Source of the DNA: a virus
Taxonomy: Duplodnaviria; Heunggongvirae; Uroviricota; Caudoviricetes
Strand: one strand, 5' to 3'
IMG/VR virus record: IMGVR_UViG_2879748301_000007
Length of the DNA stretch: 19,942 nt
Shown piece by piece: positions 15,001 to 16,437 of this stretch. The stretch's first letter is position 1. Each line of letters begins with the position of its first letter. Position numbers: made by a program.

Positions 15001-16437
15001 GGGCAAACAAACTACTACTGCACTCTTGCTGTGCTCCATGTTCCGGTGAGGTGATGGAGGCGCTTCAGGCCTCGGAAATCGACTACACCATCTTTTTCTA
15101 CAACCCGAACATTCATCCTCAGAAAGAGTATTTAATTCGTAAGGATGAGAATATTCGCTTTGCTGAACAACACGGCGTGCCGTTTATTGATGCTGATTAC
15201 GACACAGACAACTGGTTTGAACGAGCCAAAGGAATGGAATGGGAGCCCGAACGAGGGATCCGTTGCACCATGTGTTTTGACATGCGTTTTGAGCGGACAG
15301 CGCTGTACGCCGCTGAAAATGGTTTCAGTGTGATCAGCAGTTCACTGGGCATTTCACGCTGGAAAAATATGCAGCAGGTTAACGACTGTGGGCGGCGAGC
15401 CGTCGCGCATTATCCGGGCATGGTGTACTGGGATTATAACTGGCGCAAGCAGGGCGGCTCGTCCCGTATGATTGAAATCAGCAAGCGCGAAAAATTCTAT
15501 CAGCAGGAATATTGTGGCTGTGTGTATTCTCTGCGCGATACCAATCTACACCGCAAATCTCAGGGACGCCCTCTTATCAAAATTGGTCAACTCCACTACG
15601 GTAAAGAAGAGAAGGAGTGATTTTATGGGGCACCTTTCTGATTGATTTCATATTGGCGAGGTAAGTAGAATGACTGCGGGTGCTTGAGGCTATCTGCTTC
15701 AGGCATGAACACCAAAAGGCAGATAGAGAAAAGCCCCAGTTAACATTACGCGTCCGGCAAGACGCTTAACATTAATCTGAGGCCAATTTCATGCTTTGCA
15801 CATGTAGGTTAGCCTCTTACATGCCGAAAGGCAAGGAGAAGCAGGCTATGAAGCAGCAAAAGGCGATGTTAATCGCCCTGATCGTCATCTGTTTAACCGT
15901 CATAGTGACGGCACTGGTAACGAGGAAAGACCTCTGTGAGGTACGAATCCGAACCGGCCAGACGGAGGTCGCTGTCTTCGTAGACTACGAATCCAGGAAG
16001 TAAGAGTGACCGGGTGGGGAGCTGATCCCATCCCCGCCCACCTCTGATGTGTCAGGCATCCTCAACGCACCCGCACTTAACCCGCCCATCGCTGTGATCT
16101 CTCAGCGTTTCGGCGGGTTTTTTGTTGTTTATTTCCGGTGAATTTGATTCGCGCACCTTCGCAGATAGAATCGACTCACTTAAGTAGCGCGCAGGGAGAA
16201 GAGGGATGGACCCTGAAGTGGCACACTGAATTTGGCCACCTGAACAGAGGTGATATGCTCACCTCAGAACAACACAGGTGCTCCAATGAAAAAAAGAAAT
16301 TTTAGCGCAGAGTTTAAACGCGAATCCGCTCAACTGGTTGTTGACCAGAAATACACGGTGGCAGATGCCGCCAAAGCTATGGATGTTGGCCTTTCCACAA
16401 TGACAAGATGGGTCAAACAACTGCGTGATGAGCGTCA

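What the first reader, a model, noticed from the sequence alone, without database searches (positions are those of the whole stretch)
15621..16123. Hok-family type I toxin gene with its own terminator and a structured leader, possibly co-transcribed with queH
A 51-aa Hok/Gef-type toxin ORF with RBS and a downstream intrinsic terminator is present. The leader contains an 8-bp inverted repeat (CTATCTGC…GCAGATAG). I could not identify a convincing Sok-like antisense promoter and terminator, and the only upstream ORF is in frame rather than a Mok-type overlap. As with hokD in the relBEF operon, the toxin may be expressed from the upstream gene without antisense control.
Basis: partly seen in the sequence, partly recalled or inferred. 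Interest (0 to 1): 0.55.

Follow-up and report, generated by a model that had tools for sequence, protein, structure and literature searches.

The report
Ordinary hok/mok/sok toxin–antitoxin cassette in prophage
This is a complete, textbook hok/mok/sok type I toxin–antitoxin cassette (small membrane toxin plus antisense RNA antidote) in a decayed lambda-like prophage, almost identical to the already characterised hokW–sokW locus of Shiga-toxin phages, so it is ordinary.

Summary
There is a 51-aa Hok ORF (15848..16003; Pfam HOK_GEF, E 4e-23), an AAGGAG RBS, the inverted repeat CTATCTGC/GCAGATAG (15690-97 / 15719-26), and a terminator hairpin plus U6 (16079..16123).

The interpretation that Sok and Mok are missing and that the toxin is hokD-like and read through from queH is wrong. 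Window 15658..16082 is about 92% identical to the annotated mokW/hokW/sokW locus of phage 933W. The Rfam sok family matches 15678..15853 at 117 bits (gathering 59).

A convergent antisense promoter sits on the minus strand: TTGCCT, 17 nt, TAACCT. Its -10 is the box mutated experimentally in sokW. It would drive a ~71-nt Sok RNA (15799→15729) with a 5' tail, a long stem-loop and a U-rich end.

The 70-codon upstream ORF (15791) starts 57 nt before hok and in frame, exactly as in annotated mokC/hokC and mokW/hokW. hok has its own promoter (TTGATT-18-TAGAAT). Its 5' end (tac) pairs with 16060..16072 (fbi), and this pairing shows compensatory changes across 34 loci.

K-12 hokD homology begins only at the hok RBS, so the hokD analogy fails.

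Verdict: already known, structurally intact, function inferred by homology. Low interest.

The parts
15642..15671 (+). hok/mok mRNA promoter: -35 TTGATT (15642-47), 18-nt spacer, -10 TAGAAT (15666-71)
   Evidence: Consensus scan, 9/12 matches. A -10-like TAnAAT/TAnnAT box sits at the same distance upstream of GGGTGCTTGAGG across the 34-locus alignment, whose consensus reads GTATAAT..CGGCGGGTGC.
15678..16123 (+). Predicted full-length hok (mok_hok) mRNA, about 446 nt
   Evidence: The Rfam sok/hok-leader model starts at 15678. The MFE is -187.7 kcal/mol, z = -7.45 against shuffles. The 3' end is placed at the U-tract of the terminator.
15678..15689 (+). tac element (5' end, GGGUGCUUGAGG)
   Evidence: Pairs with 16060..16072 in the MFE structure. 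This helix is 87.7% paired in 34 loci, with a UA->CG compensatory change in 8 loci and no unpaired cell at that pair.
15690..15726 (+).
   Evidence: Conserved helix, 88% paired, with 3 pairs showing double changes (helix 2).
15729..15799 (-). Sok antisense RNA (about 71 nt), complementary to the mok SD and start codon
   Evidence: Coordinates transferred from the annotated sokW of 933W through a gap-free stretch of the alignment. The fold gives a 5' single-stranded tail, a long stem-loop and the tail GGGGCUUUUCUCU, z = -4.9. The consensus stem across 21 loci has 5 pairs with compensatory changes.
15806..15834 (-). sok promoter: -35 TTGCCT (15834..15829), 17-nt spacer, -10 TAACCT (15811..15806)
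   Evidence: Sequence. Identical to 933W. 33 of the 34 loci keep the 17-nt spacing (L038, the exception, has lost the sok boxes), and nearly all keep a TTGCCT- or TTGACC-like -35 and a TA...T -10. Mutagenic primers YO-421/422 of PMC8621323 alter exactly this -10 to silence sokW.
15779..15782 (+). mok Shine-Dalgarno GAGG, sequestered by the upstream complementary box GCCCC (15733-15737)
   Evidence: MFE pairing. The GAGGCC motif is nearly invariant in the alignment. The same GAGG mok SD and anti-SD logic is described for R1 in PMC9841398.
15791..16003 (+). mok ORF (70 codons), starting 57 nt upstream of hok and in frame with it
   Evidence: Same arrangement as annotated mokC and mokW. 20 of 34 loci have the 57-nt in-frame offset.
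15833..15838 (+). hok Shine-Dalgarno AAGGAG (overlaps the sok -35 on the opposite strand)
   Evidence: CAAGGAG is nearly invariant in the alignment.
15848..16003 (+). hok toxin ORF, 51 aa
   Evidence: Pfam HOK_GEF, E 4.3e-23. 50/51 aa identical to HokW of 933W. The identical protein is annotated by RefSeq as 'type I toxin-antitoxin system toxin HokD', WP_014532198.1.
16012..16039 (+). G+C-rich hairpin just after the stop codon (the likely 3' end-protecting stem-loop of the processed mRNA)
   Evidence: MFE structure. Conserved GGCGGGG...CCCCGCC helix, 98.6% paired (helix 17). Its role is inferred from the R1 study.
16060..16072 (+). fbi (fold-back inhibition) element CCUCAACGCACCC, pairing with tac
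16079..16123 (+). Intrinsic terminator: branched hairpin plus U6
   Evidence: Relatives carry a simpler CCCGC-TTCG-GCGGG-T(n) hairpin at the same place.
14934..15620 (+). Upstream neighbour: prophage queH (epoxyqueuosine reductase). Not part of the cassette.
   Evidence: Pfam QueH, E 2.6e-65. Annotated as QueH in the 99.8%-identical E. coli locus.
16214..17463 (+). Downstream neighbour: IS3-family insertion sequence (IS911-like by its ends). Begins 90 nt after the hok terminator, so the cassette is intact.
   Evidence: Transposase domains HTH_Tnp_1 and rve. Relatives L002 and L005 are uninterrupted at 16213/16214.

Best explanation
The region is a complete hok/mok/sok type I toxin-antitoxin cassette, the counterpart of hokW-mokW-sokW of Stx phages 933W/Sp5. 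It lies in the nin region of an IS-riddled lambdoid prophage. The proposed mechanism is inferred from homology to R1 hok/sok and hokW/sokW. A weak promoter (15642..15671) makes a stable ~446-nt mRNA. The 5' tac element of that mRNA pairs with the 3' fbi element and closes the molecule, while the mok SD (GAGG) is masked by an upstream complementary box. The full-length RNA is therefore neither translated nor bound by Sok. Slow 3' trimming removes fbi, and the RNA refolds so that mok can be translated. Ribosomes reading mok (which begins 57 nt upstream, in frame) open the hok start site. A convergent promoter inside mok makes the short, unstable Sok RNA (15799->15729), which pairs with the mok start region, blocks translation and triggers duplex cleavage. 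When sok transcription stops, through loss of the element or prophage induction, Sok decays first and Hok is made, inserts into the inner membrane and kills or lyses the cell. What is shown here is the presence, conservation and covariation of all the sequence elements. Transcription, toxicity and the physiological role (prophage retention, help with lysis, or phage exclusion) are inferred.
For: Hok carries the HOK_GEF domain at E 4e-23. Rfam RF01794 matches its full length at 15678..15853, 117 bits against gathering 59, E 1e-27. The region is 91.8% identical over 15658..16082 to 933W, where mokW, hokW and sokW are annotated. Hok is 50/51 identical to HokW. The sok -35, spacer and -10 are identical to those of sokW, and this -10 was the box mutated to silence sokW experimentally. 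33 of the 34 loci keep the 17-nt sok promoter spacing. The Sok fold has z -4.9, and its consensus stem has 5 compensated pairs. The full-length mRNA fold has z -7.45 with a tac-fbi closure. The tac-fbi helix is 87.7% paired in 34 loci from Escherichia, Kluyvera, Photorhabdus, Erwinia, Pantoea and Citrobacter, with a UA->CG double change in 8 loci. Across the whole structure, 81% of cells are paired against about 40% when partners are slid by 1-3 columns, and 0 of 500 shuffles reach the observed covariation. The mok SD pairs with GCCCC in the fold. The hok promoter is found by the consensus scan and its -10 is conserved. hokW/sokW has been shown experimentally to be a type I TA system (PMC8621323). 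The R1 mechanism is described in PMC9841398. The cassette is identical in hok, mok and sok to loci in E. coli FDAARGOS_943/944, E. coli ECMA0423 and S. flexneri SFBU1023.
Against: No expression or toxicity data exist for this copy. The sok -10 (TAACCT) matches only 3/6 of the consensus, and the generic promoter scan did not report it. The in-silico MFE of a 3'-truncated mRNA keeps the mok SD paired and forms the 5' 'metastable' hairpin rather than the open tac/ucb conformation, so the activation step is not reproduced computationally, although a tac x ucb duplex of -10.7 kcal/mol is possible. The terminator loop carries a ~22-nt insertion relative to relatives, with unknown effect. The host prophage is defective and many chromosomal hok loci are known to be inactive. 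The structure tested was derived from the window sequence itself, which inflates the percentage paired but not the compensatory changes.
Confidence: 0.9

Rival explanations
1. One reading: a leaderless, hokD/relF-like hok that has no Sok and no Mok and is expressed only by read-through from the upstream gene (queH).
For: The queH stop codon (15620) is only 21 nt from the hok -35 box, and no terminator was found between them. Both genes are on the same strand and in the sense of the prophage early-right operon. Read-through transcripts are therefore possible.
Against: The full ~170-nt leader is present and matches Rfam sok at 117 bits. The sok promoter and RNA are identical in architecture to experimentally validated sokW. 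The mok ORF is present. hok has its own promoter. K-12 hokD aligns with the window only from 15834 onward, so it lacks exactly the part that the window retains.
Confidence: 0.03
2. A structurally intact-looking but functionally dead relic, like most K-12 chromosomal hok loci. It would be carried passively in a decaying prophage, silenced for example by the unusual terminator insertion or by weak promoters.
For: The prophage is heavily rearranged by IS elements. An IS sits 90 nt downstream. The terminator loop has a ~22-nt insertion not seen in relatives. No expression data exist.
Against: Unlike K-12 hokC, where IS186 ends 20 nt after the stop codon and removes fbi, here every element is intact: promoter, tac, ucb, mok, sok promoter, hok ORF, fbi and terminator. 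There are no substitutions in hok, mok or sok relative to three other genomes. Hok is 50/51 identical to the proven toxin HokW (PMC8621323).
Confidence: 0.07

Closest known systems
hokW-mokW-sokW of Stx2 phage 933W / Sakai prophage Sp5 (Takada et al. 2021, PMC8621323)
   Same: About 92% nucleotide identity over 15658..16082. Hok is 50/51 aa identical. The sok promoter boxes, mok offset (57 nt, in frame), tac, leader hairpins and fbi are the same. Both are prophage-borne.
   Different: The -35 region of the hok promoter differs, and so does everything 3' of fbi: the window has a canonical terminator, whereas 933W diverges there. 7 of the first ~18 nt of Sok (the 5' recognition tail) differ from SokW. 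The genomic position differs: the nin region next to queH here, against the far right end of the phage genome in 933W.
hok/sok (parB) of plasmid R1
   Same: Same architecture and element order: promoter, tac, ucb, mok SD GAGG, mok, convergent sok promoter with 17-nt spacer, hok, post-stop hairpin, fbi, terminator. Same Pfam and Rfam families.
   Different: Hok is only distantly related (HokW is 44% identical to R1 Hok according to PMC8621323). In R1 proper, mok reads in a different frame from hok; this is inferred from PMC9841398, where T315A is a mok stop but Hok Y48N. Here mok is in frame. R1 is on a plasmid; this locus is in a prophage.
hokC(gef)/mokC/sokC of E. coli K-12
   Same: About 75% nucleotide identity over leader plus ORF. 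mokC is annotated in frame, 57 nt upstream of hokC. sokC is annotated antisense across the mokC start.
   Different: K-12 hokC has IS186 20 nt after its stop codon, removing fbi and the terminator. The window copy is intact. The hokC-type Sok stem-loop is 18 nt shorter.
hokD (relF) of the relBE-hokD operon, Qin prophage, K-12
   Same: 90% aa identity. Homology runs from the hok RBS through fbi to the terminator region. Both lie in the nin region of a lambdoid prophage, upstream of rem/Q-type genes.
   Different: hokD lacks the promoter, tac, mok and sok, because relE ends just upstream of it. The window has all of them. RefSeq's label 'HokD' for the window protein is a family name and says nothing about this architecture.

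Membership tests
hok/sok type I toxin-antitoxin family (Pfam PF01848 + Rfam RF01794) | Hydrophobic toxin ORF of about 50 aa with the Hok/Gef domain | tested here: met
   PF01848, E 4.3e-23, 81 bits against a cutoff of 22, covering 42/42 profile positions.
hok/sok type I toxin-antitoxin family (Pfam PF01848 + Rfam RF01794) | Conserved structured leader (hok mRNA 5' UTR / sok region) | tested here: met
   RF01794 matched over its full length, positions 1-157, at 117 bits against gathering 59.
hok/sok type I toxin-antitoxin family (Pfam PF01848 + Rfam RF01794) | mok leader ORF with its own SD, starting upstream of hok and overlapping it | tested here: met
   ATG at 15791 and GAGG at 15779-82. 70 codons, 57-nt offset, as in annotated mokC and mokW. 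The frame differs from R1 proper, but the frame varies within the family: offsets of 56, 57 and 58 nt all occur.
hok/sok type I toxin-antitoxin family (Pfam PF01848 + Rfam RF01794) | Cis-encoded antisense Sok RNA with its own convergent promoter, complementary to the mok translation start, ending in a stem-loop plus U-rich tail | tested here: met
   Met at sequence and structure level. The promoter TTGCCT-17-TAACCT is identical to validated sokW, conserved in the alignment, and supported by the fold and covariation. Actual transcription cannot be tested with these tools.
hok/sok type I toxin-antitoxin family (Pfam PF01848 + Rfam RF01794) | Long-range 5'-3' tac/fbi pairing that closes the full-length mRNA | tested here: met
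   12 bp between 15678-89 and 16060-72 in the MFE structure. 87.7% paired across 34 loci, with compensatory UA->CG in 8.
hok/sok type I toxin-antitoxin family (Pfam PF01848 + Rfam RF01794) | Refolding of the 3'-processed mRNA into an open, translatable, Sok-accessible form (tac/ucb) | tested here: inconclusive
   The MFE of the truncated RNA keeps the mok SD paired and shows the metastable 5' hairpin. A tac x ucb duplex of -10.7 kcal/mol is possible.
hok/sok type I toxin-antitoxin family (Pfam PF01848 + Rfam RF01794) | Toxicity of Hok and its neutralisation by Sok | not testable with these tools
   Shown experimentally for HokW/sokW, which is 50/51 aa identical and has the same sok promoter (PMC8621323).
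   K-12 hokD homology to the window starts at 15834, whereas the window carries 156 further nt of conserved leader plus a promoter.

The most novel reading that the evidence does not exclude
The cassette sits in the sense orientation of the prophage early-right (pR-nin) operon, 21 nt behind a phage queH gene, with no intervening terminator. On induction, antiterminated read-through from queH could cross the convergent sok promoter and silence Sok by transcriptional interference. It would also produce 5'-extended hok RNAs that cannot form the tac-fbi clamp. That would be a built-in switch coupling prophage induction to Hok production, and a possible mechanism for the unexplained RecA-dependent loss of sokW RNA reported for Sp5. 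The queH-hok pairing recurs in the isolated coliphage HannyBb.
Probability: 0.12. Interest if true: 0.4.

Novelty: already known. Interest (0 to 1): 0.1.

Why it matters
It matters little beyond correct annotation. RefSeq annotates only the toxin (as 'HokD') at the near-identical loci. The mok ORF and the Sok RNA go unannotated there, which can mislead readers into thinking the toxin is unregulated, as happened here. The locus is a clean, intact example of the prophage-borne hokW-type cassette, and it shows what the truncated K-12 hokD locus looks like when whole. It could serve as a comparison copy when studying cross-talk between the several hok/sok copies per genome.

Tried and rejected
(1) The generic promoter/terminator scan found the hok promoter but neither the sok promoter (its -10 matches only 3/6) nor the terminator (loop longer than 8 nt). 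Both were then established by homology, folding and conservation.

(2) The hokD analogy was tested by BLAST against K-12 Qin and rejected.

(3) I first recalled that mok is out of frame in R1. An IncFII plasmid whose Hok is 100% identical to R1 Hok showed an in-frame 57-nt offset, whereas the mutational data in PMC9841398 imply an out-of-frame mok in R1 proper. The survey shows that both arrangements occur, so reading frame is not a membership criterion.

(4) Folding the 3'-truncated mRNA did not reproduce the published open conformation. I left this as inconclusive.

(5) The repeat finder did not detect the imperfect terminal inverted repeats of the downstream IS. Its ends were read directly and by comparison with uninterrupted relatives.

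(6) The 8-bp inverted repeat taken alone is not statistically remarkable. Its significance rests on conservation.

Full report
**1. Observation**

- The 51-codon ORF runs from ATG 15848 to TAA 16003. It is a clear Hok/Gef protein: Pfam PF01848, E 4.3e-23.
- AAGGAG lies at 15833..15838, 9 nt before the start codon.
- CTATCTGC (15690..15697) and GCAGATAG (15719..15726) form the core of a 10-bp helix in the predicted mRNA structure.
- A hairpin (16079-86 / 16112-19, with an inner 5-bp stem) followed by T6 (16118..16123) ends the unit. The simple terminator scan returned nothing only because the loop exceeds its 8-nt limit.

An isolated perfect 8-bp inverted repeat is not rare by chance; 19% of shuffles of the region contain one. 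Its reality therefore rests on conservation, described in section 3.

**2. What it is**

A megablast of 15600..16213 hits 4713 of 5426 complete E. coli genomes (median 2 places per genome, up to 10) and 79 phage records.
- Two E. coli chromosomes (FDAARGOS_943 and 944) carry the locus at 99.8% identity. There it is annotated only as 'type I toxin-antitoxin system toxin HokD', next to 'epoxyqueuosine reductase QueH'.
- A genome-collection scan found a 100% identical Hok in E. coli ECMA0423 and Shigella flexneri SFBU1023.
- The best annotated relative is phage 933W (also VT2-Sakai/Sp5). Window 15658..16082 is 91.8% identical to a stretch annotated with mokW, hokW and the antisense sokW RNA.
- The Rfam family 'sok' (RF01794) matches 15678..15853 over the whole model at 117 bits, against a gathering score of 59, E 1.4e-27.

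**3. Anatomy: every canonical element is present**

(a) *hok promoter.* The boxes are TTGATT, 18 nt, TAGAAT at 15642..15671. A -10-like box at the same distance from GGGTGCTTGAGG is conserved in a 34-locus alignment spanning Escherichia, Kluyvera, Photorhabdus, Erwinia, Pantoea and Citrobacter.

(b) *tac/fbi.* In the MFE structure of 15678..16124 (-187.7 kcal/mol, z = -7.45), the 5' GGGUGCUUGAGG (15678-89) pairs with CCUCAACGCACCC (16060-72). Across the 34 loci this helix is 87.7% paired. One pair switches UA->CG in 8 loci with no unpaired case. Mapping the whole window structure onto the alignment gives:
- 81% of cells paired, against 38-44% when partners are slid by 1-3 columns;
- 51 pairs with changes on both sides;
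- 0 of 500 shuffles reaching the observed covariation.

The caveat is that this structure was derived from the window sequence itself.

It is 88% paired, and 3 of its pairs show double changes.

(d) *mok.* GAGG lies at 15779-82 and ATG at 15791. The ORF has 70 codons and is in frame with hok, 57 nt upstream. In the full-length fold the mok SD is paired to GCCCC at 15733-37, the upstream complementary box.

(e) *sok.* The annotated sokW coordinates transfer, through a gap-free part of the alignment, to window 15799..15729 on the minus strand.
- Just upstream on that strand lie TTGCCT (15834..15829), a 17-nt spacer and TAACCT (15811..15806). These are identical to 933W.
- 33 of the 34 loci keep the 17-nt spacing; L038 is the exception. 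Nearly all keep TTGCCT- or TTGACC-like and TA...T-type boxes.
- The mutagenic primers used by Takada et al. to make 'promoter-less' sokW change exactly this -10 (AGGTTA on the plus strand).
- The predicted RNA has a single-stranded 5' tail, a long stem-loop and the conserved tail GGGGCUUUUCUCU, z = -4.9.
- Its consensus stem in 21 distinct loci has 5 pairs with compensatory changes.

(f) *Post-stop hairpin.* A G+C-rich hairpin follows the stop codon at 16012..16039. The equivalent helix is 98.6% paired across loci.

**4.

That is the arrangement in R1 proper: in PMC9841398 the substitution T315A is a stop in mok but Y48N in Hok.

The in-frame 57-nt arrangement is nonetheless what is annotated for mokC/hokC in K-12 and mokW/hokW in 933W. 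It also occurs in an IncFII plasmid whose Hok is identical to R1 Hok, and it holds in 20 of the 34 loci surveyed. Offsets of 58 nt (6 loci) and 56 nt (5 loci) also occur. [quoted passage not shown] Reading frame is therefore not a criterion.

The hokD analogy was tested directly. K-12 hokD aligns with the window only from 15834 (the hok RBS) to 16085. hokD has lost exactly the leader that the window retains.

Read-through from queH remains physically possible. The queH stop is at 15620 and no terminator was detected before the hok promoter. But read-through is not required for expression.

**5. Mechanism**

The mechanism is inferred by homology. The full-length mRNA is locked by tac-fbi, with the mok SD masked. 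Trimming at the 3' end releases the lock. Translation of mok then enables translation of hok. Sok binds the mok start region and blocks translation, and the duplex is degraded. When Sok supply stops, Hok is made and damages the inner membrane (PMC9841398; PMC8621323).

For the nearly identical hokW/sokW, toxicity, antitoxin activity, inner-membrane localisation and a roughly two-fold contribution to phage release after mitomycin C have been shown experimentally.

The refolding step was not reproduced by MFE prediction of a truncated RNA. That prediction instead forms the 5' 'metastable' hairpin described for nascent hok transcripts. A tac x ucb duplex of -10.7 kcal/mol is possible.

**6. Context and integrity**

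The window is collinear with the lambdoid prophage of E. coli FDAARGOS_943 from about 10417 to 16217. The gene order there is cI/cro-like, ydaT, replication genes, DUF977, queH, hok.

At 16214 an IS3-family element (IS911-like ends, 16214..17463) interrupts the prophage. Beyond it lies an inverted fragment of the lysis region. The IS begins 90 nt after the hok terminator, so the cassette is untouched. By contrast, K-12 hokC has IS186 20 nt after its stop codon, which removes fbi.

Relative to its three closest relatives, the window differs at 16015 or 16093 (3' UTR and terminator loop) and, in all three, at 16214, the first base of the IS. None of these differences lies in hok, mok or sok.

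**7. Verdict**

This is a canonical, structurally intact hok/mok/sok cassette of the hokW type and is already known. The family assignment is right. The claims 'no Sok, no Mok, hokD-like' are wrong.

The only mildly unusual features are:
- the branched terminator;
- the tight juxtaposition with a prophage queH in the sense of early transcription, a pairing also seen in phage HannyBb;
- the divergent Sok 5' tail relative to SokW.

Interest is low.

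Noticed in passing
window 14934..15620 (+): A prophage-borne queH (epoxyqueuosine reductase, Pfam QueH, E 2.6e-65) sits directly upstream of hok in the nin region. By tblastn it is rare in phage records: 25 of 50,697 match, and the only close Escherichia hit is phage HannyBb (96% aa), where the gene is unannotated and also lies upstream of a MokW-like gene (about 380 nt away). Why a lambdoid phage would carry a tRNA queuosine-maturation enzyme is unexplained.
   Followed up: partly
window 16214..17463 (+) and 17463..17962: An IS3-family element with IS911-like ends (TGAAGTGGCACAC... 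/ ...GTTGACCACTTCA) is inserted 90 nt after the hok terminator. Relatives are uninterrupted at this site (GGACCC|CGAACAGG). The DNA beyond the IS is an inverted piece of the same prophage's lysis region, which indicates an IS-mediated inversion or deletion.
   Followed up: partly
window 16144..16171 (+): A second promoter-like site has the same hexamers as the hok promoter (TTGATT-16-TAGAAT) and contains another copy of GCAGATAG (16161). It lies upstream of a gene that, in intact relatives, starts 36 nt beyond the IS insertion point. It may be the promoter of that now-disconnected downstream gene.
   Followed up: no
window 8390..8477 (-) and 8502..8578 (-): Rfam hits above gathering score to C4 antisense RNA (75.7 bits) and the isrK Hfq-binding sRNA (61.5 bits), in the immunity/antirepressor part of the prophage. 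In the related E. coli locus this part carries a Rha-family regulator gene.
   Followed up: no
window 2611..7525 and 9077..10419: A dense cluster of IS copies. Several full and partial copies match the annotated IS600-family element of the related E. coli locus, in both orientations (2611-3874, 4801-5631, 5632-6895, 6896-7331). Another segment (9077-10419) matches an IS2-family element. This IS load is typical of Shigella or EIEC-like genomes.
   Followed up: partly
window 16087..16111 (+): The hok terminator loop carries a ~22-nt insertion (CATCGCTGTGATCTCTCAGCGTTTC) relative to related loci, which have the simple hairpin CCCGC-TTCG-GCGGG. The insertion forms an extra inner 5-bp stem. One of the few SNPs against the nearest relatives (16093) lies in it.
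   Followed up: partly
window 15782..15799 (-) compared with L001 (933W sokW): The 5' single-stranded tail of the predicted Sok differs from SokW at 7 of its first ~18 nt, although the rest of the RNA is nearly identical. E. coli genomes carry a median of 2 and up to 10 hok-like places, so this divergence may keep co-resident hok/sok copies from cross-talking.
   Followed up: no
alignment A2 (34 hok loci; L005-L050): The mok reading frame is not fixed within the family. The offset from the mok ATG to the hok ATG is 57 nt (in frame) in 20 loci. It is 58 nt (out of frame, R1-like) in 6 loci. It is 56 nt in 5 loci, where the 19-codon mok ends near the hok start. A few loci have lost the ATG. K-12 hokC shows its IS186 junction inside the 3' UTR in the same alignment.
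   Followed up: yes
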